Below are positions 4,220 through 47,642 of a stretch of DNA of 54,277 nucleotides, piece after piece. Source of the DNA: a virus. Lineage: Duplodnaviria > Caudoviricetes. The stretch covers positions 1 to 54,277 of IMG/VR virus record IMGVR_UViG_3300010373_000058; one strand, written 5' to 3'. Position 1 is the stretch's first letter. Each line of letters opens with the position of its first letter. The notes under the pieces were generated by a model, which did not search any database, was not told the DNA's origin, and was given only the letters and a program-made list of their open reading frames with translations. Both the position numbers and the translations under genes were made by a program.

Positions 4220-4474
4220 TCATCCTCCTTGGTCGTTAGGGCGCTTATGTTTGAGAATCCATTTAGCGATCCCATTCATCGCGCTCTTGGTTCTTGGATC
4301 AATTTTGCGATAGTCGTTTACACCGTCGTCGTAGCCCTCGTCTTTCCTGACTTCTTCGAGCGCAGCACGCCAGATGGTTTTGGCCAGCGCCCTAACCACG
4401 CGCTGCATTGAACCGCCGCTTCGCTTGCGGTTCAGTTTGCGCCGGTCAATTCGGTGAGATGATTTCTTTTTCAT
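4220..4474 (-). CDS. Cassette-borne hypothetical protein
   Basis: Start lies inside attC-like site 4390-4513; cassette ends GTTAGGGCGCT/AGCGCCCTAAC. Confidence 0.6.
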   Translation of the reverse strand: MKKKSSHRIDRRKLNRKRSGGSMQRVVRALAKTIWRAALEEVRKDEGYDDGVNDYRKIDPRTKSAMNGIAKWILKHKRPNDQGG

Positions 4475-4513
4475 AGTTCCTTACAGCGTCGGTCAGTGTG
4501 CTTGTCGTTAGCC
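4390..4513 (+). mobile_element. attC-like site H
   Basis: CCCTAAC-CACGC-GCTGCATTGAACCG...CGGTCAGTGTGC-TTGTC-GTTAGCC. Confidence 0.7.
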
Positions 4514-4755
4514 ACCATTGGCCATGTAGGTTGTTTCGCCGCCCATTCCATGAGCTTCCACACTGCATCGCACCGTATGGATTCAGGTACATCTTCGTGT
4601 TCATGGGCTAGTGATGCCAGCAGGTCGAACCTTGAGTTTGCTATAGCGGGCCCATTCGGATGCGCCACTAGATACCAGCCGTTTTGTTCGTCCAGTATGG
4701 CGATGATTGGGTGGTTTTCTCCGAAAGTGGATAACAGGTCAGATGGATCGCTCAT
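4471..4755 (-). CDS. Cassette-borne hypothetical protein (start taken at MSDPSDLL)
   Basis: Reads into attC H and stops in its loop. Confidence 0.55.
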   Translation of the reverse strand: MSDPSDLLSTFGENHPIIAILDEQNGWYLVAHPNGPAIANSRFDLLASLAHEHEDVPESIRCDAVWKLMEWAAKQPTWPMVANDKHTDRRCKEL

Positions 4756-4917
4756 AGATGTTCTTTCCCGGCCATAGGCCAAAACCTTCGATTCCCGCAA
4801 TAGTAGGTCATGTGTCTGCCGACATGCCCGGCCTTTCGTTCGCACACGCGATATTTTCCTGGGTCGCGTTCATCGCTTCTCATTACCGTTGCCGACAGGC
4901 ATTTGCACGACCCGTCA

Positions 4918-7227: not shown

Positions 7228-7581
7228 ATGAAAGCAATCACCTGCGATGCCATTATCACTGGAATCAGCAGCCGGTCAGATCGCAGCTTGTCTCTACGAT
7301 TGGCTACTCCTGAATTGTCCGCAGAGGAATGCACCGCTTTTCACCAGATCAAGGGATTGAATTTGAAAGCCCTGTTTCAACCTTCTGATTCTGTTCCGCA
7401 GGAACTTGTCACCGTTCACAATGACCTGGATATTAAAACTCCATCTCAACGGCTGCGTTCGGTCATTTATATTCTTTGGAAACAAATCAAGCCGGATGAA
7501 ACCAATTTTGAACTGTTTTACCTCGATCAGATGAACGAGGTAATAGAACGATTTAAGGCCCAACTTGAACCACGGCCTTGA
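7228..7581 (+). CDS. Conserved phage hypothetical protein
   Basis: KTPSQRLRSVIY motif; in early operon. Confidence 0.65.
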   Translation: MKAITCDAIITGISSRSDRSLSLRLATPELSAEECTAFHQIKGLNLKALFQPSDSVPQELVTVHNDLDIKTPSQRLRSVIYILWKQIKPDETNFELFYLDQMNEVIERFKAQLEPRP

Positions 7582-7600
7582 AAGAAAGAACCAAAATACC

Positions 7601-8206
7601 ATGCACTGGAAAGAAAGCGGTCAATACGAAAACCCACCAGCAGGATCACATCTCGCTCGTTGCATTCATGTCATTGACATGGGCACTCAAAAACACACTT
7701 TCGGAGGGGAGGAATGGACAAGCCGGGACGTTAGAATTACCTGGGAATTGCCCACTGAACTAATGGAAGGCAAGTATAACCCGGAAGTAAAAGGTAAACC
7801 ATTCGCAGTCAGCAAAACATTCAAACAGTCGTTGCATAACGCTTCTTCGCTTAGAGGATTTCTTGAAAGCTGGCGCGGACGAAAGTTCACCAAGGAAGAA
7901 TTGTCCAGTTACGATCCTCGCAAGCTGCCAGGCGTTCCTTGCCGCATTACATTGATTGAGAACGGAGATTACATCAACGTGGATGGCATCGCCCCGATAG
8001 GCAGGAATGAGAAGTGTCCGGATCAGGTGAATCCATCTGTTTACTTCTCACTTGAACCTGACCAGTACAACCCCGGAGTCATGGCCGCTCTGACAGATAA
8101 GACAAGGGAAAAGATTCAGAACTCACCGGAGTTTGCTGCATTGATGAGATCAACCGAACCTGCCACAGAAAAGCCAAATGATACGGAAGACGATGTGGCA
8201 TTCTGA
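7601..8206 (+). CDS. Putative ssDNA-binding/replication accessory protein
   Basis: G.H.ARC...ID.GTQ...WEL...L..FLESWRG; acidic C-terminus EDDVAF typical of SSBs. Confidence 0.6.
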   Translation: MHWKESGQYENPPAGSHLARCIHVIDMGTQKHTFGGEEWTSRDVRITWELPTELMEGKYNPEVKGKPFAVSKTFKQSLHNASSLRGFLESWRGRKFTKEELSSYDPRKLPGVPCRITLIENGDYINVDGIAPIGRNEKCPDQVNPSVYFSLEPDQYNPGVMAALTDKTREKIQNSPEFAALMRSTEPATEKPNDTEDDVAF

Positions 8207-8689: not shown

Positions 8690-9040
8690 ATGCAAATGAA
8701 CCCGCTCGCACGACAGGCCGCTGAGGATTGGTTTAAAGACCCACCTGGGAATCCAGACTGGTCTCCAAGCATTAGCCGGAAGGAATACATAGAAGACATG
8801 GTGAACCGTCTCGCCGGTCATTTGGAACCGTATTTGCGCAGGGAAGTATCGCATCTGGTGGAAGCGTTGGGCGTCATTATAGAGGAATACGAAGACAGGA
8901 AAATTCATTTTGGAGATGAATACCTTTGGAAGAAGAACGAAGATTCAGCGCAAGTAACAGTCGTGAAAGCCCTGCACGATTTCTACAATAACGCTGCCGG
9001 TGAGCCACTGCCGCCGACAGCGAACGTGAACGACAAATAG
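8690..9040 (+). CDS. Hypothetical protein terminating within attC A
   Basis: ORF track; stop TAG in the attC loop. Confidence 0.55.
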   Translation: MQMNPLARQAAEDWFKDPPGNPDWSPSISRKEYIEDMVNRLAGHLEPYLRREVSHLVEALGVIIEEYEDRKIHFGDEYLWKKNEDSAQVTVVKALHDFYNNAAGEPLPPTANVNDK

Positions 9041-9112
9041 AACCTATGAAAATCAAGCAAGCATCGAAACGGAAACGCGGGCGGCAGTTGCGCTCCACTG
9101 GCATTGTTAGCC
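8986..9112 (-). mobile_element. attC-like site A
   Basis: Plus: CAATAAC..TGCCGGTGAGCCACTGCCGCC...GGCGGCAGTTGCGCTCCACTGGCA..GTTAGCC. Confidence 0.7.
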
Positions 9113-9321
9113 TGCGTCGAAAAAGAAAGAACTGGCATAGCTGCCCGACGTGCCGCCAAGACATGCGTGAAGAACCGCACGACGGACTTAACGGCAAAGA
9201 CTGCCCGCAATGCGGACAGGGAATGTCATGGAGACGCGCAAAACGCAAGCAGCTAACGACCAAGCTCACCCCACTGCCGCTGGCGGGACGGGTGGAGCGC
9301 AGAAAGGACTTTGAAATATGA
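9046..9321 (+). CDS. Cassette-borne zinc-ribbon protein
   Basis: CPTC...CPQC; starts in attC A, stops in attC B. Confidence 0.65.
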   Translation: MKIKQASKRKRGRQLRSTGIVSLRRKRKNWHSCPTCRQDMREEPHDGLNGKDCPQCGQGMSWRRAKRKQLTTKLTPLPLAGRVERRKDFEI

Positions 9322-9379
9322 GCAAAACTTTGAACGTGAAAAGCGCGGCGGCAGTTGCGGGTGCAGCGCCTTGTACGGC
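9251..9379 (-). mobile_element. attC-like site B (degenerate R'' GCCGTAC)
   Basis: Minus: GCCGTAC-AAGGC-GCTGCACC...GGTGAGC-TTGGTC-GTTAGCT. Confidence 0.7.
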
Positions 9380-9731
9380 GATTCCGCGTGAGCATCTGCT
9401 GGCAATGCTGAAAGATGCCGCGTGGTATTCCGGCGGGCGCAGAGAATACGGCGACCATCAAGGCTACAGCTACGACGTGAACGAAGAAACGTCCCTGCGT
9501 GATGTGCTCTATCGTGACGAACCGTCGAACGCTCTAAAAAAATCTTCAACTATTTTTGACCGCATAAACATTGGTCGGAAATGGTGTCGGTGTCTGAAAA
9601 TCACAAACCCGACCCGCATGAACACGATGCGAAATCGTGTCAAGCCCCCGACTAAACATCAAGAATCATCAAGCGGGCGTGGACGGAACTGCTCAAAATC
9701 TCAAACGCAGAAAACCCATCTGGTAAAATAG
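9318..9731 (+). CDS. Cassette-borne hypothetical protein (C-terminus may be read-through past cassette end at 9530)
   Basis: Start in attC B loop; core-like GTCGAAC at 9524-9530. Confidence 0.4.
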   Translation: MSKTLNVKSAAAVAGAAPCTAIPREHLLAMLKDAAWYSGGRREYGDHQGYSYDVNEETSLRDVLYRDEPSNALKKSSTIFDRINIGRKWCRCLKITNPTRMNTMRNRVKPPTKHQESSSGRGRNCSKSQTQKTHLVK

Positions 9732-9737
9732 TAGCGT

Positions 9738-10142
9738 ATGAAACACATATACAACGACGGCGGCAGCGGGACGAAGAAGCAGCGCGACTGTGTTGTGCGT
9801 GCAATCGCAATCGCTACCGGAAAACCATACGCGGAAGTCCGCGACACCATCAACCATCTGGCCGATGAAGTCTATTTCGACGGCTCGGATGCGTCAGCCG
9901 GAGTCCACAAGCAACTCTACAAAGACTATCTCAAGTCCTTGGGCTGGGTGTGGACTGCAACCATGAGCATCGGCAGCGGATGCAAAGTCCACCTGCGCGA
10001 CGGAGAACTGCCGATGGGAACTCTCATCGTGTCAGTGTCGCGGCATCTGGTTGCCGTGATTGATGGCGTGATACACGACACCCACGACTGCTCACGCGAA
10101 GGAACAAGGTGCGTCTATGGCTACTGGCGCAAGGCGGCATAA
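9738..10142 (+). CDS. Conserved phage hypothetical protein
   Basis: YNDGG...DCVVRAIAIATG.PY...HL.AVIDG.I.DT.D; TGG-TAAAAT extended -10 just upstream. Confidence 0.75.
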   Translation: MKHIYNDGGSGTKKQRDCVVRAIAIATGKPYAEVRDTINHLADEVYFDGSDASAGVHKQLYKDYLKSLGWVWTATMSIGSGCKVHLRDGELPMGTLIVSVSRHLVAVIDGVIHDTHDCSREGTRCVYGYWRKAA

Positions 10143-10247
10143 CGGCGGGAACTGAGACACCGCCGAACTGCGGTGTCCGAACTCTAAAAAATCTTATGGC
10201 AAAAAAGAAAGCGATAACGGCGGTTGTCTCCAGTGACCCTGTTAGGC
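10137..10247 (-). mobile_element. attC-like site D
   Basis: Plus: GCATAAC..ACTGAGACACCGCCG...CGGCGGTTGTCTCCAGT..GTTAGGC. Confidence 0.75.
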
Positions 10248-10423
10248 CGCTGGGCATCCTGTCTGTAATAGGAGCAAGAAACCGCTCCGATAAACTCAGC
10301 GAACACGCTGTATGGGCGGAAGTCATAGTGACTGACGAGCAAGGCAAAGAATGGATATTTGATGTCTCTGCGTTCAACTATGCAATGCGGCCTAACGACC
10401 AGATCAGGCGCGTGGCCGATTAA
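10196..10423 (+). CDS. Cassette-borne hypothetical protein
   Basis: ATG inside attC D, stop inside attC E. Confidence 0.6.
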   Translation: MAKKKAITAVVSSDPVRPLGILSVIGARNRSDKLSEHAVWAEVIVTDEQGKEWIFDVSAFNYAMRPNDQIRRVAD

Positions 10424-10498
10424 CCCGCGCCTCCAAATTTATGAGCAAACATCGAACTGCTAAAGCCCCGCCACGTCGCCTGCATCGGATGGTTGGGC
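10390..10498 (-). mobile_element. attC-like site E
   Basis: Minus: GCCCAAC-CATCC-GATGCAGGCGACGTGGC...GCCACGCGCCTGATC-TGGTC-GTTAGGC. Confidence 0.8.
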
Positions 10499-10755
10499 CT
10501 ATCCGTCGTGACTGCGCCGTGCGCAAATACTCGACGTGTGGAAGTGCTGACCTCCACGAACTCGACTGGAGCAACTGGTTTCAAGACAACGGCTACATCC
10601 ATGTGCGCCGATTCCGTGCTGATGAAGGCGAAACGTGGCATCGAGTGTATCCGAAAAACATCAAAGGCCGAATCTGTAAACGTGTCGCCTGCGTAGATGG
10701 CTCGCCACACTGGTTGCACGATAGGCCCAACGAGAAAGCTGACCTACCCGGATGA
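10441..10755 (+). CDS. Cassette-borne hypothetical protein
   Basis: ATG in attC E, stop in attC F. Confidence 0.65.
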   Translation: MSKHRTAKAPPRRLHRMVGPIRRDCAVRKYSTCGSADLHELDWSNWFQDNGYIHVRRFRADEGETWHRVYPKNIKGRICKRVACVDGSPHWLHDRPNEKADLPG

Positions 10756-10831
10756 GCGCCGCCGAAACCATTCTATCGCCAGAGGACGTAGCCCGGCGCT
10801 CATCCGGGTTAGGTCCAGCGCCTTGTTACGC
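10725..10831 (-). mobile_element. attC-like site F
   Basis: Minus: GCGTAAC-AAGGC-GCTGGACCTAACCCGGATGAGCGCC...GGCGCTCATCCGGGTAGGTCAGC-TTTCTC-GTTGGGC. Confidence 0.85.
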
Positions 10832-11363
10832 CTCATTGTCGAGGGTGCGGGACATGCCAAACTCTGACACCTTCGATGTGCCATCCATCGCGGGCTTCGT
10901 GAAGAAGTATCTGATGAAATCACAAATCTCGGTGGACTGCTTCTCGCGCAACAAACGCTGGACAACCTACACCAACGACCTGAACCCGAACACGGCGGCG
11001 GAACACCACATGGACGCCGAGGACTTCCTGACGATGATCGCAGACAAGGGCATCGTGGCCGACCTGGTAATCTGTGACCCGCCATACTCGCCGCGCCAGG
11101 TAAAGGAGTGCTACGACTCCATCGGGCTGCCGATGAAGCAAACGGACGCGCTACTCGGCATGACGCGCAAACGGCTCAAGCGGCAAATCAACCGCCTCGT
11201 GCCAGTCGGCGGCGTGGTGCTGCACTTCGGATGGAACACGGTCGGCATGGGTAAAGGATGGGACATCGAAGAAATCATGCTCGTCTGCCACGGCAGCGAC
11301 CACAACGACACAATCTGTATGGCCGAAAGGAAAACGCCCGAATTACAGGAGACGTTCCTATGA
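10752..11363 (+). CDS. Cassette-borne amino-methyltransferase-like protein (putative DNA adenine MTase)
   Basis: VDCFSRN (motif I-like), TNDLNP, catalytic DPPY. Confidence 0.75.
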   Translation: MSAAETILSPEDVARRSSGLGPAPCYASLSRVRDMPNSDTFDVPSIAGFVKKYLMKSQISVDCFSRNKRWTTYTNDLNPNTAAEHHMDAEDFLTMIADKGIVADLVICDPPYSPRQVKECYDSIGLPMKQTDALLGMTRKRLKRQINRLVPVGGVVLHFGWNTVGMGKGWDIEEIMLVCHGSDHNDTICMAERKTPELQETFL

Positions 11364-11533
11364 GGCGTAACATAGCAATAGGCCAAACCGGGGAAACAAA
11401 CTCCAAATTAAAAGGCGCTCAAAGGAATCTCGCAAGCGTTGGTCTGACAATTCACTTCGCAAACGTGAGAAGTTGAGGGTTGAACGGTCGATTGCCAGAG
11501 AGCAGGATTTGGAAGATGAAATGAGGCTGTTGT

Positions 11534-11896
11534 ATGCCAACCTGGACAAGCGATGATCTCAGAGCCTATCAAGCTCGTGTTAAGAGGGTACGTTCCACCG
11601 AGCCAGAATGCCCTGAGAGGCGTTCACTGGTCGGTCCTGCACAGAGAGAAGCTAAGGGCTGGACTGGCGCTCAGAAGGGCACTGGAGAGCGAATGCGGGT
11701 CATTTTCACCGTCTATGCCCAGCGACCAAACGACTGGGACAACTACCGGCTCAAAGACGCTCAGGATTGCCTTGTCGAAGCTGGATTATTGGTTGACGAC
11801 AATTGGCGCGTTCTCGAAGGATTCGTCAGGTCTGAAAAGGCACACTCAAAAGAGGAGGAAAGGACCGAAATAGAGATTATCGGGCCAGTTTCCTGA
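11534..11896 (+). CDS. RusA-like Holliday junction resolvase
   Basis: RP.DWDN...KD..DCL..AG.L.DD acidic catalytic pattern. Confidence 0.65.
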   Translation: MPTWTSDDLRAYQARVKRVRSTEPECPERRSLVGPAQREAKGWTGAQKGTGERMRVIFTVYAQRPNDWDNYRLKDAQDCLVEAGLLVDDNWRVLEGFVRSEKAHSKEEERTEIEIIGPVS

Positions 11897-12218
11897 GTAT
11901 GTCTTTCAATGATTCACACATCTTGGCGTCCTCAAATGAGAAGCAACATATCCGTTCGGCCTGTGAAAGTGCCAGTTCAGCCTCGTTCCGCATCGCTAGC
12001 AGCTTGTTTTTCAGGTCTTCGTTTTGACGCCTGAGCATCTCAACGCCGTTTGATTCCCAAGAGGACAGGTCTTTACCTTCTGGAGACAGGATTTTCATTT
12101 TGTAGCCGAGTAGTAAAGGACAATTGCGATACCGAACAGGCACAGGACCAGGAGCCAGATGGTGATTGCCTCGGCGTCAAAGGACGCTTTCAGGCAGCGC
12201 AGGAATTCAGTTAGTTTC

Positions 12219-12253
12219 ATATACGAACAAATGTCGCCTAATCCTTGTTAGCT
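12219..12253 (+). repeat. attI-like array-leading site 1
   Basis: ATATACGAACAAATGTCGCCTAATCCTT-GTTAG; 26/28 identical to 13478-13505. Confidence 0.6.
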
Positions 12254-12535
12254 GCTTGCGTGTTTTGCCACTTCCGCCGCCCATTCCTTGAGCGTGCTTT
12301 TCTCGTTGAGCCGTTCGATCCATTCTTCCGGGATGTCACGGCAGATTTGCTCCTCGACGTGCATGGCGATTTCCACATGGTCGAGACTGTCCAGGCCGAG
12401 CGTTTCAGTCGTATCGTTCTCGGTGGCACTTTCGCTGTGATTTTCATGTATCCATTCGAGCACCGCAGTTAACAATTCAGTGCAGGACAACTCGGTCGGC
12501 ATCTTTGGATTAGGCGTTGCGTCTTGGTTTTTCAT
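12248..12535 (-). CDS. acpP: Cassette-borne acyl carrier protein
   Basis: LGLDSLDHVEIAMHVEE with the phosphopantetheine Ser; acidic; ATG in attC I. Confidence 0.8.
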   Translation of the reverse strand: MKNQDATPNPKMPTELSCTELLTAVLEWIHENHSESATENDTTETLGLDSLDHVEIAMHVEEQICRDIPEEWIERLNEKSTLKEWAAEVAKHASS

Positions 12536-12598
12536 AGGTCTTTTTGCTTTTGATAGCACTCGGTTTTACCCGCCGAGTGCCTGACTTCACCGTTCGGC
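12467..12598 (+). mobile_element. attC-like site I
   Basis: AGTTAAC-AATTC-AGTGCAGGACAACTCGG...CCGAGTGCCTGACT-TCACC-GTTCGGC. Confidence 0.75.
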
Positions 12599-12828
12599 GA
12601 TTCGCCCGTCCAGTTCCACGGCACGGTCAGGTTGCCCATGTCGTCACACGGAATTGTTGCATCTATTTCCGAGTTGTATGGCTGACACCATTCATCGCAT
12701 CGCGGGCAGTTCTCACCGCTTGGCGGTAGCGGGTCATGGCCCGGCGACTTCCACCGATGCTCACATTCCGGGCAGTGAAAGAAACGCCAACCAATCCGAA
12801 CAACGGGATTCGTCTCAGGGGATTTCAT
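12532..12828 (-). CDS. Cassette-borne zinc-ribbon protein
   Basis: CPEC...CPRC; bounded by GTTCGGC (12592) and TCCGAAC (12795). Confidence 0.6.
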   Translation of the reverse strand: MKSPETNPVVRIGWRFFHCPECEHRWKSPGHDPLPPSGENCPRCDEWCQPYNSEIDATIPCDDMGNLTVPWNWTGESPNGEVRHSAGKTECYQKQKDL

Positions 12829-13477
12829 CCAACGCCTTTCTCAGGGCTTCACATTGCGAAGCTATAAAGAGGTAAAAATTCAATGCTTGCAGACCATCAA
12901 TTCTGTCCAATAACTCTTTTGCCGCCCGTTTCAAATCCAATTGCGCCTCGCTCCTGGCCCTGATCTGAGCCTTGAGCGATTCGATTTCGTCCTGTTCGTC
13001 CATGATGGGTGAGGCTATCTGTTCGATAAACTTCTCCATCGGTTCGTTTCTCAGGAACTCGGTGTCACCGGCCCTGAGTGCTGCTGCGGTTTTCATTGGT
13101 TTCATTTTGGTGATGGAAGTTTGCTGCCATAGTAAACGAATCGTTCAGAATCGTGTGCGTATCTTTTCACGATCTTCTCCAAGAAGCTGCGCTTGCTTTT
13201 CAGTCCATCCGGCAGGAACATTCGGAAGCCGCACTTGCGGACTGCTGAGCACACGGCATGGACATCATCAGCACCAGGTCCACGTCGGTCAGGGTTTGTC
13301 CACTCGAATCGGATTGGCGCTCGTTCACATTTAGGACATTTCATAATCGTGATTCCATGAGATCAGCGGCCAGATTGGCTATATCATCCCTCGTGGCAGC
13401 GTCCGGGTGAATGGACAGGGTTGGCACGAGCAAGAGCCAGTCGGCATTTCTCCAATCAGGTTTCATTTTGGTTGGTG

Positions 13478-13512
13478 ATATACGAACAAGTGTCGTCTAA
13501 TCCTTGTTAGGC
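13478..13512 (+). repeat. attI-like array-leading site 2
   Basis: ATATACGAACAAGTGTCGTCTAATCCTT-GTTAGGC. Confidence 0.6.
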
Positions 13513-13698
13513 GACTTTGCACTCATCGCATGTGTCCTCACCGTTCATCACGTCCACCCAGGCGGTTTTACAGACGGTGCATTTCGCCTCTCGGACAGCT
13601 TTCGATTCTTTCGCCTGTTGCTCTGCGATGTAGTCGTCCATCTCGCAGTCGCGGGCAAACTCTTGGTCTTCGATTGATGGGCCATTTGGATTGCGCAT
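13507..13698 (-). CDS. Cassette-borne small CxxC protein (start uncertain)
   Basis: CTVC...CDEC; stop TAA lies in the core site. Confidence 0.5.
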   Translation of the reverse strand: MRNPNGPSIEDQEFARDCEMDDYIAEQQAKESKAVREAKCTVCKTAWVDVMNGEDTCDECKVA

Positions 13699-13705
13699 AT
13701 TCGTC

Positions 13706-13798
13706 GCCGAAGCATGCGCTCCAGCGAACCACGCCATCGCGCTCTTGTTGCATTGTTACGGTTTGCTCGGCGTGGTCGCTGAGCTTGGGTCGTTATGC
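13706..13798 (+). mobile_element. attC-like site J (R'' AAC>AAG)
   Basis: GCCGAAG-CATGC-GCTCCAGCGAACCACGCC...GGCGTGGTCGCTGAGC-TTGGGTC-GTTATGC. Confidence 0.75.
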
Positions 13799-14031
13799 CG
13801 ACAGGCCATGCGAAAGAGTTCCGTTGAGATACCCCACACATTGGAAGCAGTTCCGGCGTCACCTTTTTTCTCTAGCGCCTTTGAGATTTCGAGCAGCTTT
13901 TCGGAGAGTTTGAACAGCTCATCATTGTCGGCATAACCCGGCGCTGGAGGCAGCGGCTTGCCGCCCGGTGCGTTCAGCCATTCCTCTACTTCGGGAGACT
14001 CGTTGTAGTATTTTTCGATTTCAGGATTCAT
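13756..14031 (-). CDS. Cassette-borne hypothetical protein
   Basis: ATG in attC K, stop in attC J. Confidence 0.65.
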   Translation of the reverse strand: MNPEIEKYYNESPEVEEWLNAPGGKPLPPAPGYADNDELFKLSEKLLEISKALEKKGDAGTASNVWGISTELFRMACRHNDPSSATTPSKP

Positions 14032-14058
14032 CGCCGTGCCTCAGCTTGTTAGTTCTGT
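13931..14058 (+). mobile_element. attC-like site K
   Basis: GCATAAC-CCGGC-GCTGGAGGCAGCGGC...GCCGTGCCTCAGC-TTGTTA-GTTCTGT. Confidence 0.75.
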
Positions 14059-15687: not shown

Positions 15688-16299
15688 TTAAGTTAGTTTC
15701 TCATACCTGTTCACATATTCCTCGCGGTCGAAAATGAATAATGAGTATTGATCTGCAAAAGCTTCGGCGATCCCCGGTAAAGTGCGGCTTCTGTTTTTCC
15801 AACGATCAGGACCGGGTGATTCAAAGTGGATTCGCGGCTTTCTTCCATCGACAATGTTTGTTGGTTGTAGCCCCGGCAGGTTTTTGAGCCACAAACAGGT
15901 TGCCTTGGTTTCGCCATGACCGAACTGCCAGGGATGGATGATCTGGTCAGGCTTGCGAATGCGAGTGGACAAAACGCCAATCGGGTTTTCAAGTGCGATG
16001 TGGGGTATTGGCGCATTCAACAACGCCTTCACGAATTCAAAAGCTAAATCCTGTTCAGTCCTTCGGTCCTTGAACCATCTGGCACCGGATGACGCCAGAT
16101 AGGTGCAAGGCGGATGCGCAATCATCAAATCCCAGTGATCCTGATAGACGGTCAATACATCGCACTGAAAATGTTTGCCCGGCCTCTCACTTGGCAGCAG
16201 GTCACACGACCAAGCGTCATGGCCGCGAGCGGCAAAGGCGTCTCGGACGATTCCTGAAAATTCACACCCGATTAAAATTCTGGCCATATTCAAATCCAT
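15688..16299 (-). CDS. DNA cytosine methyltransferase-like protein (start may be 16287)
   Basis: ILIGCEFSG (motif I), AHPPC (catalytic Cys), ENP, KATCLWL. Confidence 0.8.
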   Translation of the reverse strand: MDLNMARILIGCEFSGIVRDAFAARGHDAWSCDLLPSERPGKHFQCDVLTVYQDHWDLMIAHPPCTYLASSGARWFKDRRTEQDLAFEFVKALLNAPIPHIALENPIGVLSTRIRKPDQIIHPWQFGHGETKATCLWLKNLPGLQPTNIVDGRKPRIHFESPGPDRWKNRSRTLPGIAEAFADQYSLFIFDREEYVNRYEKLT

Positions 16300-18904: not shown

Positions 18905-19558
18905 ATGTTTGGGAAACATTTTGAGAGGATGTATCAGGGGTCTATGAGGGGAGCAGGGGCGGACGTATTTGCGGTGTGGGGGTATGCGATTTCACATGCC
19001 AGGCCGGATTCGTTGGTGGAGATGAATTCGGAGATCGTGGCTTTTTTGATTGGGATGCCTCAGCAGAGGGTTGAGAAGGCGCTTGAATTTTTGCAGTCAC
19101 CTGACCCCAAGAGCAGGAACAAGGAGTATGAAGGGAGAAGGATGGTTAAGAGGGGGGAGTTCGAGTATTTTCTTCCCAGCCTTGCTTATTACCGGGGGGT
19201 AAAGTCGTTGGAAGATTTGAGGGAATACAACCGTGTTAAGCAGCGGGAGAGCCGGGAACGGAGGAAGGGATTTGTGGAGACTGAGGAATCGGAGACGGAG
19301 GTTGAACCCCATGACGGTTTTCCAAGGACGAAGGAGGATGCGGTGGCGCACAGCGATTTTGTGGGGTGCACCAAAGAGTTTGCGGAGACGACCTGGAACA
19401 AGGCGATGAGCAGGAGTGGTCGGGATTCCAAGGGTCAGGTCATCAGGAGTTGGAGACACTTTCTGGCTTCGGAACACGCCTATCACAAGGGAAGGCCGGA
19501 CATTAACGGAAACCAAAAAAGGAGTCCGGAATGGGACAAGACAATTCGAGAGCCTTAG
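18905..19558 (+). CDS. Phage replication initiator-like protein
   Basis: MFGK.F..MY.GSM.GAG; YNR.KQRESR linker; directly before DnaB. Confidence 0.6.
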   Translation: MFGKHFERMYQGSMRGAGADVFAVWGYAISHARPDSLVEMNSEIVAFLIGMPQQRVEKALEFLQSPDPKSRNKEYEGRRMVKRGEFEYFLPSLAYYRGVKSLEDLREYNRVKQRESRERRKGFVETEESETEVEPHDGFPRTKEDAVAHSDFVGCTKEFAETTWNKAMSRSGRDSKGQVIRSWRHFLASEHAYHKGRPDINGNQKRSPEWDKTIREP

Positions 19559-20820
19559 AGGAACTTCCCCCGCACGACCCCGTTGCGGAGTGGTTTTTGT
19601 TGTGTTGCCTGGTCCACCGACCGCAACTCATCAAGGGGATCAAACCCATCCTGTTCTATATCGAGGAATGTCGCAGGGTGATTTTGAAGATGCAACAGTT
19701 TCTACTTGAAGGAAGGGAATGCGTTGCCGACCCGGCCTTGTTCCTTCACGAGTTGGGAAGGGCGCTGGACACGCATTATCACGAGCCGTTGACCAGGGCG
19801 TTCGTGCAGCTTCCTTCCCCGGAAAACTGGACCTACTGGCTGGATATTCTGGTCGCTCACTGGAAGGCCCGACGGTTGTTGCAGATTTCACCCCGAATTT
19901 CAGATGCCTCCTACCAGCTTCAACAGGGAAATTCCTCGCCGGTCGAGAGTATTCGCAAGGAACTCCATGAGATAGACACCGAATCGGCGGGAATGTCGTC
20001 CGGTAAAAAGGTGGGGGAAATGGTCAGGCCGGTCATCGATGAACTGGAAAAACAGTTCTCGAATCAGGGTGTGTTTCCCGGTCTGACCACCGGATTGTCG
20101 AATCTGGACCGGGCAACGGCGGGACTTCAAAAGGGAAGGTTCTACATCATCGCCGGAAGACCCGGTGAAGGCAAAAGTTCGATGCTGTTGTCGCTCGCCG
20201 CCCATGTCGCTTCCCTGGGTAAAAAGGTGGTCTATTACAGCCTCGAAATGCCGGGGGAAGAACTTACCGGTAGATTGATTTCGTCCATGTCAAGGGTGGT
20301 CCTGGGAAAGTTCTCCAGGGGAACGGCCACCCAGGAGGATTTTGAAAGGGTCAGCCGGGCTTCGCTGGAGGTGAAGAAACTTGACCTGTGCATCGTGGAT
20401 TCCATGTCCGGTCTGCAACAGATTATTCATCACGCAGGTGTCGAGTCGGCTCGTGGATTGTGCGATTTGATCGTGGTCGATTACCTGCAACGAATCAGGA
20501 TTCCTGGGTTCAGGGGGAACCGGAATGATCTGGTGACGGAAATCAGCAACGCCATCAAGGACATTGCCATGAGCGCCAATGTTCCCGTCCTCTCCGCCGC
20601 CCAGTTGAATCGGAGTGTCACCAGGGAGGACCGGCACCCGAACCTTTCAGATTTGAGGGACAGCGGCTCTCTGGAACAGGATGCCGATTTCGTTGGGCTA
20701 TTGCATTCGGAGAATCAGAATGAAACCAGGATGCTCGTCGCCAAGAACCGCAGCGGCGATACCGGAGTGATAACGTTCACCTTCCGAAGGGAAATCACCC
20801 GGTTCGATTCACCGGTATGA
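19531..20820 (+). CDS. dnaB: Replicative DNA helicase
   Basis: GRPGEGKS, YSLEM, IVVDYLQ, AQLNR, DLRDSGSLEQDAD, KNRSG. Confidence 0.95.
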   Translation: MGQDNSRALEELPPHDPVAEWFLLCCLVHRPQLIKGIKPILFYIEECRRVILKMQQFLLEGRECVADPALFLHELGRALDTHYHEPLTRAFVQLPSPENWTYWLDILVAHWKARRLLQISPRISDASYQLQQGNSSPVESIRKELHEIDTESAGMSSGKKVGEMVRPVIDELEKQFSNQGVFPGLTTGLSNLDRATAGLQKGRFYIIAGRPGEGKSSMLLSLAAHVASLGKKVVYYSLEMPGEELTGRLISSMSRVVLGKFSRGTATQEDFERVSRASLEVKKLDLCIVDSMSGLQQIIHHAGVESARGLCDLIVVDYLQRIRIPGFRGNRNDLVTEISNAIKDIAMSANVPVLSAAQLNRSVTREDRHPNLSDLRDSGSLEQDADFVGLLHSENQNETRMLVAKNRSGDTGVITFTFRREITRFDSPV

Positions 20821-45135: not shown

Positions 45136-45223
45136 TTCTAACAACGAAGTCAGGCACGGCGGACCTGACGCACCGAATTAACCCGCAGCGCAACCCGCCG
45201 CTGCCTGCACTGACTGGTTAGGA
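45136..45223 (-). mobile_element. attC-like site L
   Basis: Minus: TCCTAAC-CAGTC-AGTGCAGGCAGCGGCGG...CCGCCGTGCCTGACT-TCGTT-GTTAGAA. Confidence 0.75.
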
Positions 45224-45230
45224 GTCCTTT

Positions 45231-45713
45231 ATGAGTAGAAGTGGATATAGCGACGAATGTGAAAATCTCGAACTGTATCGAGCATCTGTGGATCGTGCGC
45301 TGCACGGAAAACGCGGACAAGCGTTCCTGCGTGAACTCGCCGCCGCGATGGACGCAATGCCTGAGAAAGTGCTCATCGCTGGAGAACTGGTGAGCGAAAA
45401 AGGCGAGTGCTGCACCATCGGCGTGGTGTGCAAAACTCGCCAACTGGATGTCAGCCGCGTGGACTACTACGATCCTGATTCCGTCGCCAAGGCAATCGGC
45501 GTAGCGCGTTCGATGGCTGCCGAAATCGAACACATGAACGACGAGTGGGGAACGGCAAGTGAACTGCCGAACGAGCGATGGAATCGGATGCGTAAATGGG
45601 TGTCCGACAACCTCGCGGCTCAGACTCCTAAAGACGAGATCAGGCACACCGGAACAGAGACTCACAGTGAACAAGAAAACAAAGGGCCGGTGTTGCCTGA
45701 ATCGAAGCGTTAG
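45231..45713 (+). CDS. Cassette-borne conserved phage protein
   Basis: SRSGYSD...GKRGQAFLREL..A.DAMP.K.LI...NDE...RW.RMR.WV; reads through attC M. Confidence 0.75.
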   Translation: MSRSGYSDECENLELYRASVDRALHGKRGQAFLRELAAAMDAMPEKVLIAGELVSEKGECCTIGVVCKTRQLDVSRVDYYDPDSVAKAIGVARSMAAEIEHMNDEWGTASELPNERWNRMRKWVSDNLAAQTPKDEIRHTGTETHSEQENKGPVLPESKR

Positions 45714-45715
45714 AA
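45626..45715 (-). mobile_element. attC-like site M (R' GTT>TTT)
   Basis: Minus: TTCTAAC-GCTTC-GATTCAGGCAACACCGG...CCGGTGTGCCTGATC-TCGTC-TTTAGGA. Confidence 0.7.
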
Positions 45716-45719
45716 GCAC

Positions 45720-46031
45720 ATGCCACTTCAGCCCAAGACACGGTTTCTGGAACAAGACCCCAAGGTGCTTGAAGCCTACCTTTCCACACTCGGTTCGGAC
45801 CAGTTCCTCAAGGCGGCTGAGGCATCCCTGTTGCAACTGGTGGTCAACACCAAGCCGGTCTCGGCAGACATTCATTCGTCTGCTGCCGCATGGAACCAGA
45901 TTGAAGGGGCCAGAAGGTTTCTGGACACGTTGCTGTCCATTGCCGAGAAGACCGCTCCGGTGAGCCGTGAAAAGCCAGGATACGAACTCAGTTACACGCC
46001 AGTCAAGCCTCCGTTACCAAAACAAAAATGA
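45720..46031 (+). CDS. Hypothetical head-module protein
   Basis: Helical, ~100 aa, between portal and scaffold. Confidence 0.55.
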   Translation: MPLQPKTRFLEQDPKVLEAYLSTLGSDQFLKAAEASLLQLVVNTKPVSADIHSSAAAWNQIEGARRFLDTLLSIAEKTAPVSREKPGYELSYTPVKPPLPKQK

Positions 46032-46343: not shown

Positions 46344-47642
46344 ATGTCTGAAACACTCACCGCACCACCACCGCCCACTCCAGCACCATCCGCTCCAGCC
46401 AAGGCAGCCCCGGCACCGGCAAAACCTTCTGCACCTGCCAGAGACCCCAAGGAAGGGTTCATGTCAGGTCTCAAAGCTGCGGCGGAAAAGGGGCCGAACC
46501 TCAAGAACGTTGAACCACAGGTAAAGAAGGCGTTTGAGGCTGATTTGTCGAAACCCACCCAACCCTCGACGGAACCACCCAAGGCACCAGAAAAGGCACC
46601 CCAAACGCCCGCAGAGCCACCCAAAACTCAAGGTGAACAAACACCTCCTGCACAGGAACAGAAGGCTCCTGTGGAAGCCAAGGGCGAAAAGAAGCCCGGC
46701 GCGTGGCAACTCAAGGAACGATACGAGAAACTCGCCCGTGAATACGAGAAAAGGGCCGTGGAAGCCGAATCCAAGCTGGCGCAGATGGGGGATGCGGACA
46801 AACTTCGTCAACGGGCTGAACAGGCCGAGACAAGGCTCAAGGAACTGGATGAACACATCCGATACGTGGACTATTCCAAGAGCGAGGAATTCAAGACCAA
46901 GTACCAGCAACCCTACGAAGAGGCGTGGACCCATGCGGTTAATGATTTGAAGGAATTGCAGGTCTCATTACCGGACGGAAACCAGAGGACGGGAACTGTG
47001 CAAGACCTTCTGGCGCTGGCCAACCTTCCACTTGGGGAAGCCCGAAGGCGGGCCAATGATATGTTCGGAGAAGCGGCGGATGATGTCATGGCCCATTACC
47101 GGAAGGTTCGAGAACTCAGTTCGGCTCAAACGAGAGCCTTGGAAGAGGCCAGGAAGAACGGTGCAGAACGACAGACACAGCAGACCACGGCGCAAAAGAC
47201 CGCGATGGAACAGACAGCAAAATTGTTTCACCAATTCCGTGAGGAAGACTCGGCGAAGTACGACTTCCTGAAACCCAAAGAGGGCGACGAGCAATGGAAC
47301 TCGAAGCTCAAACAGGCCACCGATTACGTGGACAGCGCGTTTTCCAGCAGTTCAAGTGACCCGCGACTTACACCCGAACAAAGGGCGGAAATCGTGAGGA
47401 AACACGCCAGCGTACGGGGACGGGCCATTGGATTCACCACGTTGAAGATGGAGAACACCCGGTTGAAGAACGAACTGGCGGAACGCGACAAGATCATCGC
47501 CCAGTACAAGGGTGGTGAACCCAACAACGGTCAGCCGCACGGGGGCGAAGCTGCCAGCACCGCACCTATTGACGCTATGGAACGGTTCAGGCAGAAGGCA
47601 TTCAGCATCGCCGGTAAGAACCCTAAACGTATGACGCCATGA
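46344..47642 (+). CDS. Capsid scaffolding protein
   Basis: Pro/Ala/Lys-rich N-terminus and coiled coil, upstream of MCP. Confidence 0.7.
   Translation: MSETLTAPPPPTPAPSAPAKAAPAPAKPSAPARDPKEGFMSGLKAAAEKGPNLKNVEPQVKKAFEADLSKPTQPSTEPPKAPEKAPQTPAEPPKTQGEQTPPAQEQKAPVEAKGEKKPGAWQLKERYEKLAREYEKRAVEAESKLAQMGDADKLRQRAEQAETRLKELDEHIRYVDYSKSEEFKTKYQQPYEEAWTHAVNDLKELQVSLPDGNQRTGTVQDLLALANLPLGEARRRANDMFGEAADDVMAHYRKVRELSSAQTRALEEARKNGAERQTQQTTAQKTAMEQTAKLFHQFREEDSAKYDFLKPKEGDEQWNSKLKQATDYVDSAFSSSSSDPRLTPEQRAEIVRKHASVRGRAIGFTTLKMENTRLKNELAERDKIIAQYKGGEPNNGQPHGGEAASTAPIDAMERFRQKAFSIAGKNPKRMTP

What the first reader, a model, noticed from the sequence alone, without database searches (positions are those of the whole stretch)
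8986..11371. attC sites are inverted relative to their ORFs and serve as translational couplers
Seen: by extrahelical-base position and spacer geometry, the canonical top strand of every site is antisense to the neighbouring ORFs. This holds for plus-strand arrays (9-11.4 kb, 45 kb) and minus-strand arrays (4.2-4.7, 12.2-14.3 kb). Most sites are translated. The upstream ORF runs into the hairpin and stops there, and the next ATG lies inside the site (stop 9040/ATG 9046; ATGA 9318-21; stop 10423/ATG 10441; ATGA 10752-55; 4471-74; 12532-35). Established: ordinary cassettes have the ORF ending before its own attC, in the sense of Pc. Inference: each cassette carries its attC at the 5' end of its gene, supplying its own start and a stop for whatever lies upstream, so any order gives a coupled operon. 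In a host integron these genes would be antisense to Pc and silent, so host arrays could store phage genes.
Basis: partly seen in the sequence, partly recalled or inferred. Interest (0 to 1): 0.85.

Follow-up and report, generated by a model that had tools for sequence, protein, structure and literature searches.

The report
Phage gene cassettes with back-to-front attC sites
This phage carries eleven integron-type recombination hairpins that all face the opposite way to its genes and sit on the gene junctions, and related phages have the same layout next to their own integron integrase.

Summary
A strand-aware attC covariance model built from class 1 integron sites finds 11 sites in the window. 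All 11 have their canonical top strand antisense to the local genes, on both plus- and minus-strand arrays.

The sites are real cassette boundaries:
- The stems covary.
- The 3' box of each site pairs with the 5' box of the next site, not with its own partner.
- A methyltransferase cassette, 91-94% identical as protein, recurs in otherwise unrelated phages. Similarity stops exactly at the next site's AAC.

Upstream genes stop inside the site in 11 of 11 cases. The first ATG of the next gene lies inside the site in 8 of 11. Whether those ATGs are used is not shown.

There is one new point. The window has no integrase, but related virus contigs encode a true integron integrase directly downstream of such arrays. 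The attC/intI geometry there is canonical and the cassette genes run towards intI. The window keeps two copies of the attI-like element that precedes intI in those relatives.

The host-storage idea is untested, and 4-base gene overlaps are common throughout this genome.

The parts
4390..4513 (-). attC-type site. The strand given is the gene strand, which is the structural bottom strand. The junction of ORF 4471-4845 and ORF 4220-4474 (ATGA at 4474-4471) lies in its loop.
   Evidence: R2 21.6 bits, E 1.4e-3, top strand '+'; R3 E 1.3e-6; junction
8986..9112 (+). attC-type site. Stop 9038-9040 and ATG 9046 lie in the loop.
   Evidence: R2 14.4 bits, E 0.17; R3 E 1.9e-6; fold; junction
9251..9379 (+). 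attC-type site with ATGA 9318-9321 in the loop. Its 3' core is GTA instead of GTT.
   Evidence: R2 11.8 bits, E 1.0; R3 E 5.6e-7
10137..10247 (+). attC-type site. The upstream stop is the TAA inside the 5' core GCATAAC (10140-10142). ATG 10196 lies in the loop.
   Evidence: R2 22.5 bits, E 7.5e-4; R3 E 4e-8
10390..10498 (+). Best attC-type site. Cores are GCCTAAC and GTTGGGC. On the gene strand the unpaired bases sit at positions 16 (C) and 23 (T) counted from the 3' end. Stop 10421-10423 and ATG 10441.
   Evidence: R1 19.8 bits; R2 36.4 bits, E 6.4e-8; fold; geometry counted on the sequence
10725..10831 (+). attC-type site upstream of the methyltransferase, with ATGA 10752-10755 at the arm/loop border.
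   Evidence: R2 23.4 bits, E 4e-4; ssDNA fold z -6.2; compensatory stem changes against L090
12467..12598 (-). attC-type site with ATGA 12535-12532 in the loop.
   Evidence: R2 11.0 bits, E 1.7; R3 E 1.3e-7
13706..13798 (-). attC-type site. Stop 13758-13756 and ATG 13737. Its 3' core is CTT instead of GTT.
   Evidence: R1 22.7 bits; R2 19.1 bits
13931..14054 (-). attC-type site. The upstream stop is the TAA in the 5' core (14051-14049). ATG 14031.
   Evidence: R2 16.9 bits, E 0.033; R3 E 3.2e-7
45136..45223 (+). attC-type site. The upstream stop is the TAA in the core TTCTAAC. The next gene starts after the site at 45231, and the 3' core GTTAGGAG supplies an AGGAG ribosome site.
   Evidence: R1 25.0 bits; R2 31.2 bits, E 2e-6; the N-terminus is conserved in homologs
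45626..45715 (+). attC-type site read through completely by ORF 45231-45713. It adds about 28 residues and gives the stop TAG inside the 3' core GTTAGAA. Its 5' core is AAA instead of AAC.
   Evidence: R2 19.7 bits; most listed homologs are 129-153 aa and cover 78-93% of the 160-aa query; tails diverge after '..QTP'
11364..11371 (+). Lone 5' core GGCGTAAC that ends the methyltransferase cassette and the plus array. ATGAGGCGTAAC (11360-11371) is a perfect 12-base complement of GTTACGCCTCAT (10828-10839).
   Evidence: Inverted repeat I1; sequence; similarity to L090 and L091 ends here
4235..4244 (-). Lone 5' core GCGCCCTAAC that ends the cassette of ORF 4220-4474. It is a 10-base complement of GTTAGGGCGC at the 3' end of site 4390-4513.
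   Evidence: Read
13478..13510 (-). attI-like element CTAAC|AAGGATTAGACGACACTTGTTCGTATAT. The same element abuts the intI start codon in related phages.
   Evidence: Direct repeat D1; BLAST hit to L090 7402-7443; comparison of sequences upstream of intI
12219..12251 (-). Second attI-like element, 94% identical to the first. It is followed by TATATGAAAC, as at the intI starts of L233 and L234.
10836..11363 (+). DNA methyltransferase cassette gene. The conserved core starts at about residue 29 of ORF 10752-11363. Possible starts are ATG 10752 (inside the site), TTG 10836 and ATG 10854.
   Evidence: phrog_11619 E 2.7e-36; homolog N-termini; 91-94% protein identity (about 90% as DNA) in L090/L224, L091, L135 and L136
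9046..10755 (+). Cassette genes between sites: 9046-9321 (zinc-ribbon-like ORFan), 9318-9731 with 9738-10142 (phrog_3754), 10196-10423, and 10441-10755.
12248..14031 (-). Minus-strand cassette genes next to sites: 13756-14031, 13507-13737 and 12248-12535.
45231..46031 (+). Cassette genes 45231-45713 (a widespread family) and 45720-46031.

Best explanation
The 11 hairpins are genuine integron-type attC sites. The segments between them are gene cassettes of a phage-borne integron family. In this family the gene lies on the attC bottom strand, the strand an integron integrase folds and cuts.

Read in the direction of the gene, a cassette runs as follows: C of the 5' core, then the hairpin, then the GTTRRRY core, then the gene, then RYYYAA. 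Each gene therefore has its own attC in front of it and ends in, or runs into, the attC of the next cassette. That next site provides the stop. The stop is often the TAA of YTAAC or the TAG of GTTAG.

In about half of the sites the variable loop carries a purine-rich ribosome site and the ATG of the cassette's own gene. The 3' arm is then read as the first 15-25 codons.

In related phages the array ends at a conserved attI-like element that abuts the start codon of a true integron integrase. The whole unit (cassettes, attI, intI) is co-directional. It is presumably transcribed from phage promoters towards intI.

This window has lost the integrase. It keeps two attI-like elements and two lone end cores, so it is an integrase-less array (CALIN) that could only recombine with IntI supplied in trans.

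Shown: site identity, strand, covariation, cassette-end pairing, the position of stops and ATGs, exchange of a cassette between unrelated phages, and IntI in relatives.

Inferred: cleavage at AA|C on the gene strand, use of the loop ATGs, and present activity.
For: 1. Strand-aware model and its control. R1 and R2 were built from class 1 attC top strands. On nine plasmid loci holding class 1 arrays, 19 of 19 hits fell on the cassette-sense strand. Eighteen are in arrays and one, L002:7920-7987, is unexplained.

2. Window. All 11 sites are antisense to the genes.

3. Geometry. [quoted passage not shown] I checked this on attC-aadA1, where G16 and T23 lie on the antisense strand. Site 10390-10498 has C16 and T23 on the gene strand.

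4. Covariation in 28 phage sites:
- The inner helix is 95.7% paired, and 9 of its 11 pairs change on both sides.
- 112 cells are changed on both sides, against 43+-5 in shuffles (0 of 500 shuffles reach it).
- Slid controls are 22-40% paired.

5. Cassette signature. The 3' core of site i pairs with the 5' core of site i+1 at a mean of 4.43 of 6 positions (n=21). The value is 3.07 within a site (n=28) and 2.63 for other combinations. Permutation p<1e-4. There are two perfect 12-base complements and one perfect 10-base complement.

6. Methyltransferase cassette. DNA is 90-91% identical in L090 and L091, and similarity stops at GGCnnAAC. The three downstream sequences are unrelated. The flanking cores covary: ACG/CGT, CAG/CTG, ATG/CAT.

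7. ORF 45231-45713. A 99%-identical relative diverges right after the codons of the 5' core.

8. Integrase in relatives. L090's virus record has an IntI scoring 267.9 bits on TIGR02249 (cut-off 265). It is 38% identical to IntI1 over its full length, including the HxLRH and Y motifs. It lies just downstream of the array, and the last cassette's cores match: GTTGTGCC and GGCACAAC.

9. The IntI family. 48 virus contigs encode IntI relatives. In the 47 that I scanned:
- 95 of 97 attC hits are on the strand opposite intI, and 93 lie upstream of it.
- Codon scoring favours the intI-sense strand, the inverted one, in 49 of 64 inter-site segments. The canonical strand wins 9 and 6 are ties. In the control on intI itself the true strand won 45 of 47.

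10. Stops and starts in the rest of the family. The upstream stop lies in the site in 76 of 83 cases. The first ATG lies in the site in 47 of 87, against 10 of 56 in the mirror reading.

11. In four of four methyltransferase cassettes that have a site, a loop ATG is in frame with the gene and the frame is open.
Against: - There is no integron integrase and no tyrosine recombinase in the window, so activity here is unproven and the sites may be relics.
- Only 1 of 8 stretches folds clearly better than shuffles.
- R1 missed 6 of the 11 sites. R2 gives E 0.17-1.7 for four of them. Their strong scores come from R3, which was trained partly on window sites.
- The first unpaired base on the gene strand is mostly C, not the usual G (alignments).
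- Three sites have one core triplet changed (GTA, CTT, AAA).
- The loop and inner stem upstream of the methyltransferase are far more diverged between the window, L090 and L091 than the gene is. Simple co-inheritance does not predict this.
- Use of the loop ATGs is not shown. Site-less methyltransferase homologs start about two codons before residue 29, so TTG 10836, just after the GTT core, could be the start here. Genes 45231 and 45720 start after their sites.
- ORF 9046-9321 has no homolog.
- The codon-score margin is only 1-3 bits for three short cassettes.
- In the family, 9 of 64 segments favour the canonical strand. That count contains some near-duplicate loci (L263/L265, L258/L266).
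- R1 failed to find three known attC sites in the control loci (qnrVC1, and arr-3 twice) at E<=1.
Confidence: 0.75

Rival explanations
1. The sites are true attC sites but only scars in this phage. Cassettes were captured once, from an integron-bearing phage or a host. The integrase was lost, and the placement of stops and starts in the hairpins is passive: any open frame simply runs on until the next stop. There is no present recombination and no role in expression.
For: - No IntI or other tyrosine recombinase in the window.
- Three sites have a damaged core triplet.
- The two attI-like elements are followed by unrelated 41-codon ORFs rather than by intI.
- A relative of this phage, L134 (57% identity in one protein), has no sites in the matching 20 kb.
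- 4-base overlaps occur at 15 junctions without a site.
Against: - Stems still pair and covary.
- Cassette-end cores still match perfectly over 10-12 bases.
- ATG-in-site is enriched on the gene strand across the family (p 2e-5).
- ATGA is one of the few invariant blocks in the methyltransferase-upstream site of three phages.
Confidence: 0.2
2. The hairpins are not integrase substrates. They are phage linker or regulatory stem-loops that resemble attC by convergence. Genes would be shuffled by homologous recombination between the conserved arm sequences, as proposed for the promoter-stem-loop cassettes of T4-type phages (recalled, not checked here).
For: - Conserved words such as TAACGACCAAG and CTTGTT flank the sites.
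- Similarity between methyltransferase cassettes begins inside the upstream site's 3' arm, not at a core.
- The window has no recombinase.
Against: - A model trained only on class 1 attC sites hits them at E down to 6e-8, with the right core triplets and the right positions of the unpaired bases.
- Relatives carry a bona fide IntI exactly where an integron would have it. In those loci 95 of 97 sites are in canonical geometry.
- Core-to-core covariation across the cassette fits exchange at the AAC/GTT triplet.
- The word YTAACGAC alone is not significant in the window: 5 found, 1.98 expected, and 4 of 100 shuffles reach 5.
Confidence: 0.05
3. The orientation is conventional and the genes are mis-called. 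The true genes would lie on the attC top strand, for example the 194-codon antisense ORF 8877-9461.
For: - Long antisense ORFs exist.
- The codon-score margin is small for three short cassettes.
- In the family, 9 of 64 segments score better on the canonical strand.
Against: Homology fixes the strand for several genes:
- the methyltransferase (phrog_11619, E 2.7e-36) and ORF 9738-10142 (phrog_3754);
- ORF 10441-10755;
- ORF 45231-45713, with more than 3,600 homologs.

The gene-sense strand scores higher in all 14 window segments that could be compared.
Confidence: 0.02

Closest known systems
Clusters of attC sites without integrase (CALINs) and integrons in phage genomes (Qi et al. 2023, PMC9892861; I read the abstract, section 3.4 and passages)
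   Same: Both are attC sites in arrays on phage genomes without a neighbouring integrase. Both have DNA methyltransferases among the cassettes. Five of the six phage attC sites tested in that paper were recombined by IntI1.
   Different: That paper reports 17 CALINs and a few integrons in isolated phages. In the parts I read it says nothing about attC strand relative to the genes, about genes starting inside attC, or about a large family of virus-encoded IntI.
Translational coupling through attI1 ORF-11/-17/-18 and short ORFs inside attC in class 1 integrons (review PMC8876359, passages)
   Same: Recombination sites are translated. The stop for the site-borne ORF is given by the TAG of the GTTRRRY core. 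Termination and reinitiation carry ribosomes across the hairpin to the next cassette.
   Different: There the mRNA carries the attC top strand, the site-borne ORFs are tiny non-functional peptides, and the cassette gene starts after the core. Here the mRNA carries the bottom strand. The real gene appears to start in the loop in about half of the sites, and the upstream gene gains a variable tail from the next site.
Ordinary integron cassette: gene, then attC, in the sense of Pc (class 1 arrays used as controls here)
   Same: Core triplets, imperfect palindrome, unpaired bases, length, cassette-end pairing, and the array lying upstream of the 5' end of intI with attC top strands pointing away from intI.
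   Different: The gene is on the other strand. In the class 1 controls the upstream gene stopped before the site in 8 of 15, at the core TAA in 4, and inside in 3. Six of 8 downstream genes started after the site. In the window 8 of 11 stops lie 28-85 bases inside the site.
'Inverted integron-integrase' group, e.g. Treponema (passage in Cury et al. 2016, PMC4889954)
   Same: intI and the cassette genes are co-directional.
   Different: [quoted passage not shown] In the phage family, 95 of 97 sites are opposite to intI, so here it is the genes that are flipped, not the integrase.
Reverse-oriented cassettes with their own promoters (often toxin-antitoxin pairs) in sedentary chromosomal integrons. 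This is recalled; no paper was read for it here.
   Same: A cassette gene antisense to its attC top strand.
   Different: Those are a minority within otherwise conventional arrays. Here the window is 11 of 11 inverted and the family about three quarters or more.

Membership tests
integron attC site | Inverse core RYYYAAC and core GTTRRRY at the two ends | tested here: met
   Eight of 11 sites have both the AAC and the GTT triplet. Three have one triplet changed by one base: 9251-9379 GTA, 13706-13798 CTT, 45626-45715 AAA.
integron attC site | Imperfect palindrome with paired L boxes and stem, kept by compensatory change | tested here: met
   In 28 phage sites the inner helix is 95.7% paired and 9 of 11 pairs change on both sides. 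Slid controls are 22-40% paired. The alignment was fitted to the model, which favours the structure.
integron attC site | Unpaired (extrahelical) bases on one arm only, at about positions 16 and 23/24, 6 bp apart, which define the bottom strand | tested here: met
   The rule comes from Nivina 2016 and was checked on attC-aadA1. Site 10390-10498 has C16 and T23. The model's unpaired columns are filled in all hits. The first base is mostly C rather than the usual G.
integron attC site | Length 57-141 bp, found by an attC covariance model, and clustered within 4 kb on one strand | tested here: met
   Lengths are 88-132 bp. R2 gives E<1 for 9 of 11 and E<=1.7 for all 11. The model was built by me from 19 class 1 hits; it is not IntegronFinder's own model.
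integron attC site | Recombined as a folded single strand by an integron integrase | not testable with these tools
   This needs a strand-specific attC x attI assay.
complete integron | intI gene next to the array | tested here: not met
   The window has no TIGR02249 and no PF00589 match, so it is a CALIN. The feature is met in relatives: L090 scores 267.9 bits (cut-off 265) and is 38% identical to IntI1.
complete integron | attI site between intI and the first cassette | tested here: inconclusive
   A conserved element, RYYYAAC-A(A/G)(G/T)GATTA...TGTTCGTATAT, abuts the intI ATG in most of the 24 relatives inspected. It occurs twice in the window. Its function is inferred from position only.
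conventional gene cassette | Gene in the sense of the attC top strand, ending before its own attC | tested here: not met
   The window is 11 of 11 antisense. In two tested cases the downstream site is not inherited with the gene.

The most novel reading that the evidence does not exclude
Phages have their own kind of integron that runs backwards. The cassette genes lie on the attC bottom strand. They are transcribed from phage promoters towards attI and a phage-encoded IntI. Each attC serves as the 5' leader of its gene, often holding its ribosome site and start codon, and also ends whatever gene lies before it. Cassettes such as DNA methyltransferases move between unrelated phages as units of the form attC-gene-RYYYAA. 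Such cassettes would be antisense to Pc in a bacterial integron, so phage and bacterial cassette pools would be kept functionally apart. This window would be an integrase-less member that depends on IntI from co-infecting relatives.
Probability: 0.5. Interest if true: 0.85.

Novelty: new variant of a known kind. Interest (0 to 1): 0.78.

Why it matters
Integrons are understood as bacterial devices in which promoterless genes are read from Pc, each followed by its attC. Here the same recombination sites are used the other way round, on viruses. That changes three things:
- where a new cassette enters the operon: at the far, integrase-proximal end;
- how it is expressed: by read-through, with the attC as the leader;
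- which cassette pool it can draw from.

It also offers a concrete mechanism for the modular exchange of small accessory and anti-restriction genes between unrelated phages. One methyltransferase cassette is 91-94% identical as protein in phages whose helicases share only 27-33%.

The variable C-terminal tails and N-terminal leaders encoded by attC are a warning for annotating small phage proteins.

The claims can be tested directly with standard attC x attI assays and translational fusions.

Tried and rejected
Approaches that led nowhere:
- Crude scans were not discriminating. A regex for cores plus folding, arm alignment (2 hits, shuffles 0-1) and constrained folding of all AAC..GTT pairs (real and shuffled scores overlapped).
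- The word YTAACGAC is not significant: 5 matches, 1.98 expected, and 4 of 100 shuffles reach 5.
- Rfam gave no match at its gathering scores and there are no tRNA genes.
- Two weak R2 hits were dropped as sites: 13543-13633 (E 0.53) and 2542-2602 (E 1.2). The first is absent with R3 and the second scores E 1.6. Both lie inside ORFs.
- Five further R2 hits at E 2.8-7 were not followed.
- ATG 10854 as the methyltransferase start was rejected, because the conserved N-terminal motif of site-less homologs lies upstream of it.
- The homolog search for ORF 9046-9321 found only the protein itself.
- The search for relatives of ORF 46344-47642 found none.
- ORF 7565-8206 gave one relative, L134, which has no sites.
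- No match for the 3' core of the last 45-kb site was found downstream, so the end of that array is undefined.
- Host identity could not be settled. Near-identical cassettes sit in MAG contigs labelled Burkholderiales and Acidobacteriota, which looks like phage contigs binned by chance.
- I ran no test for homologous cassettes in bacterial integrons.

Literature. Searches listed no paper that, by its title or abstract, deals with attC sites inverted relative to genes in phages, or with a large family of virus-encoded IntI. The library holds only open-access PMC papers and bioRxiv.

Full report
WHAT THE WINDOW IS. The window is a complete IMG/VR virus record of 54,277 b, linear, with a CheckV completeness of 96. 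Recognisable genes are few:
- a DnaB-type helicase (19531-20820), a RusA-like resolvase (11534-11896) and a methyltransferase (15688-16299);
- a weak large-terminase match (33453-35690);
- a second methyltransferase (10752-11363).

There is no tRNA gene, no Rfam match, no integron integrase and no tyrosine recombinase of any kind. The finding concerns small genes in blocks that switch strand: minus at about 2.3-5.1 kb, plus at 5.1-11.9 kb, minus at 11.9-17.5 kb, and plus from 17.9 kb on.

A STRAND-AWARE TEST. An attC site is nearly palindromic, so its strand has to be read from its asymmetry. Passages of Nivina et al. 2016 state the rule. On the bottom strand the 5'-AAC lies in the 5' core, and the unpaired bases lie on the opposite, 3' arm. 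These are usually G at position 16 and T at 23/24, six base pairs apart.

I checked the rule on attC-aadA1 of plasmid R100. G16 and T23 fall on the strand antisense to aadA1.

I then took class 1 arrays from nine plasmid loci and delimited 12 natural attC sites. Seven of them were aligned in the sense of their genes and used to build model R1 with the canonical pairs.

On the nine loci, 19 of 19 hits at E<=1 fell on the cassette-sense strand. Eighteen lie in arrays, including sites that were not used for training. One hit, L002:7920-7987, is unexplained. Three known sites were missed. R2 was rebuilt from those 19 hits.

THE SITES AND THEIR STRAND. R1 found five sites in the window at E<0.1, all antisense to the local genes. 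They are eleven sites, at 4390-4513, 8986-9112, 9251-9379, 10137-10247, 10390-10498, 10725-10831, 12467-12598, 13706-13798, 13931-14054, 45136-45223 and 45626-45715.

The top-strand match was on the minus strand wherever genes are plus, and on the plus strand wherever genes are minus. That is 11 of 11 (p 0.001). There was no opposite-strand match at E<=10.

A family model, R3, was built from 28 phage sites, four of them from this window. It separates these eleven (E<=1.3e-4) cleanly from everything else (E>=0.95).

Background is low:
- 3 hits at E<=0.1 in 1.06 Mb of unrelated virus loci;
- none at E<=0.5 in 77 of 80 bacterial loci.

Hairpin stability alone is weak evidence. Only 10722-10840 beats shuffles clearly (z -6.2). 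The other seven folded stretches range from +1.0 to -1.6.

THEY ARE CASSETTE BOUNDARIES. In an alignment of 28 phage sites the inner helix is 95.7% paired, and 9 of its 11 pairs change on both sides. Slid controls give 22-40% pairing. The alignment was fitted to the model, which favours the structure.

The outer four positions of the cores pair only about half the time within a site. Instead, the 3' core of one site pairs with the 5' core of the next. The mean is 4.43 of 6 positions, against 3.07 within a site and 2.63 for other combinations (permutation p<1e-4). A few cores were mis-picked by my script and were left in the count.

In the window the matches are perfect:
- 6 of 6 positions for 10137 to 10390, for 10390 to 10725, for 13931 to 13706 and for 45136 to 45626;
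- 12 bases for 10828-10839 with 11360-11371, and for 13937-13926 with 13803-13792;
- 10 bases for the end of the 4.4-kb cassette.

This is the classic mark of exchange at the conserved triplet.

WHICH SITE BELONGS TO WHICH GENE. Core pairing cannot settle this, but comparison can.

The methyltransferase block is 90-91% identical as DNA in L090 and L091. In all three phages it ends at ...ATGAGGC-nn-AAC, and the three downstream sequences are unrelated. The variable core bases covary across the gene: ACG/CGT, CAG/CTG and ATG/CAT.

The window shares little else with those phages. Helicase identity is 27-33%.

ORF 45231-45713 belongs to a family with more than 3,600 members in the search, and most of the listed ones are 129-153 aa long. 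A 99%-identical relative diverges right after '...QTP', which is at the codons of the 5' core (CCT AAC GAC gives P-N-D in relatives). The window protein carries a 28-residue tail encoded by site 45626-45715 and stops at the TAG of GTTAGAA.

So the downstream site does not travel with the gene. Together with the strand call, this places each cassette's attC at the 5' end of its gene.

One point does not fit neatly. The loop and inner stem upstream of the methyltransferase are much more diverged than the gene, although the stems changed in a compensatory way (ACCTA/TAGGT against AGCTA/TAGCT).

STOPS AND STARTS. In the window the upstream gene stops inside the site in 11 of 11 cases:
- three times at the TAA of the 5' core;
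- once at the TAG of the 3' core;
- seven times 28-68 bases in.

The first ATG that opens the next gene is inside the site in 8 of 11. It is after the site for 45231, where the core GTTAGGAG gives an AGGAG ribosome site and homologs confirm the N-terminus, and for 45720.

For the methyltransferase, site-less homologs begin M-x-ISRVWAMPN. This corresponds to residue 27-29 of ORF 10752-11363. ATG 10854 is therefore too late. The start is either TTG 10836, six bases after the GTT core, or the loop ATG 10752. A loop ATG is in frame and the frame is open in all four site-bearing versions (window, L090, L091, L096). ATGA is one of the few invariant blocks of that site.

Across 101 further sites of the family:
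- the upstream stop is in the site in 76 of 83;
- the first ATG is in the site in 47 of 87, against 10 of 56 in the mirror reading (Fisher p 2e-5).

In the class 1 controls stops mostly precede the site or use the core TAA, and starts mostly follow the site.

Four-base overlaps are not special to sites. They occur at 4 of 11 site junctions and at 15 other junctions in my gene list.

THE MISSING PARTNER. The virus record behind L090 encodes an integron integrase:
- 267.9 bits on TIGR02249, cut-off 265;
- 38% identical to IntI1 over its full length, with the LP..KYP..WPW.W.F stretch (recalled as the IntI-specific region), HxLRH and the tyrosine motif.

It lies at L090 7443-8396, directly after the array and in the same direction as the cassette genes. 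The last cassette's cores match: GTTGTGCC and GGCACAAC. Between that AAC and the intI ATG lies AAGGATTAGGCGACACCTGTTCGCATATC. The same contig appears in a MAG as L135.

Forty-eight virus contigs encode relatives of this IntI. In the 47 that I scanned:
- 36 have attC hits;
- 95 of the 97 hits are on the strand opposite intI, and 93 lie upstream of it. This is the canonical intI/attC geometry.

Codon scoring nevertheless puts the genes on the intI-sense strand in 49 of 64 inter-site segments. The canonical strand wins 9, and 6 are ties. Some near-duplicate loci are included. In the control on intI itself the true strand won 45 of 47.

One bacterial integron seen in passing (a Verrucomicrobiota MAG, L215) has its cassette gene in the conventional sense by my reading. 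That is a single case.

A conserved element, RYYYAAC-A(A/G)(G/T)GATTA...TGTTCGTATAT, abuts the intI start in most of the relatives inspected. It occurs twice in the window, at 13510-13478 and 12251-12219. Each copy is preceded by a cassette whose cores match, and each is followed by an unrelated 41-codon ORF. I read these as attI scars of a lost integrase. That is an inference from position.

HOW IT MOST LIKELY WORKS.

Shown: the architecture (attC, then gene, then half core), its strand, its conservation, and the exchange of a cassette between unrelated phages.

Inferred from the established IntI mechanism: the gene-sense strand folds, IntI cuts at AA|C of the 5' core, and cassettes enter at attI next to intI, which is the distal end of a co-directional transcription unit.

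Inferred from sequence statistics: in about half of the cassettes the variable loop holds the translation start, so the 3' arm is both stem and coding sequence. The upstream protein acquires a tail that depends on its neighbour.

Not shown: any activity in this integrase-less phage, any transcript, or any coupling beyond what compact phage genes show in general.

AGAINST WHAT IS KNOWN. attC clusters and a few integrons in phages are in print (Qi et al. 2023). Translation across attI and attC with stops from the core is known in class 1 integrons. What I did not find in seven searches is an array whose genes are systematically on the bottom strand, genes that start inside attC, or a large family of virus-encoded IntI with this layout. 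It also differs from the 'inverted integrase' group, in which intI shares the orientation of the attC sites. I therefore rate it a new variant of a known kind.

LIMITS.
- The canonical models are my own, built from few class 1 sites.
- E-values are rough.
- Four window sites rest mainly on the family model.
- Gene strand for three short cassettes rests on thin scores.
- The host is unknown.
- Supplementary tables of the phage-integron paper could not be seen.

Noticed in passing
window 15688-16299 (-); L061 9525-10787; L250 1049-1924: The window's other methyltransferase (phrog_757) has no sites beside it here. In L061 its homolog is flanked by two attC hits. In L250 the homolog lies between an attC hit and intI. 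The same gene is thus a cassette in other phages.
   Followed up: partly
window 45231-45713; proteins P0002, P0003, P0006: This gene family has more than 3,600 members in the search. Several close members end in '...TPND...' or '...TPN...' followed by unrelated tails. That suggests many copies in public data also run into an attC site.
   Followed up: partly
L096 3332-11448: A 21.6-kb virus contig has 13 very uniform attC hits in 8 kb, all antisense to its methyltransferase. No integrase lies on the contig, which is only 23% complete.
   Followed up: partly
L215, L220 (genome G004): A MAG labelled Verrucomicrobiota holds two integron integrases well above the cut-off (346 and 340 bits). The one cassette visible next to L215's intI has its gene in the conventional sense.
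   Followed up: partly
L135, L136 (genomes G001, G002): Methyltransferase cassettes 91-95% identical as protein sit on short contigs binned into MAGs of different phyla (Burkholderiales, Acidobacteriota). These are probably phage contigs binned by chance, so the labels say little about the host.
   Followed up: no
L002 7920-7987 (-): The class 1 attC model hits a GC-rich stretch inside the interrupted intI1 match of a Pseudomonas plasmid (26.6 bits). It is not one of the curated cassette sites and remains unexplained.
   Followed up: no
window 11534-11896 (+): A RusA-like Holliday-junction resolvase gene follows the end of the plus-strand array by about 160 bases.
   Followed up: no
window 12095-12222 (-) and 13341-13466 (-): Each attI-like element is followed by a 41-codon ORF beginning MK..., with the same TATATGAAAC-type start context as intI in relatives. 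These may be what is left after the integrase gene was replaced.
   Followed up: partly
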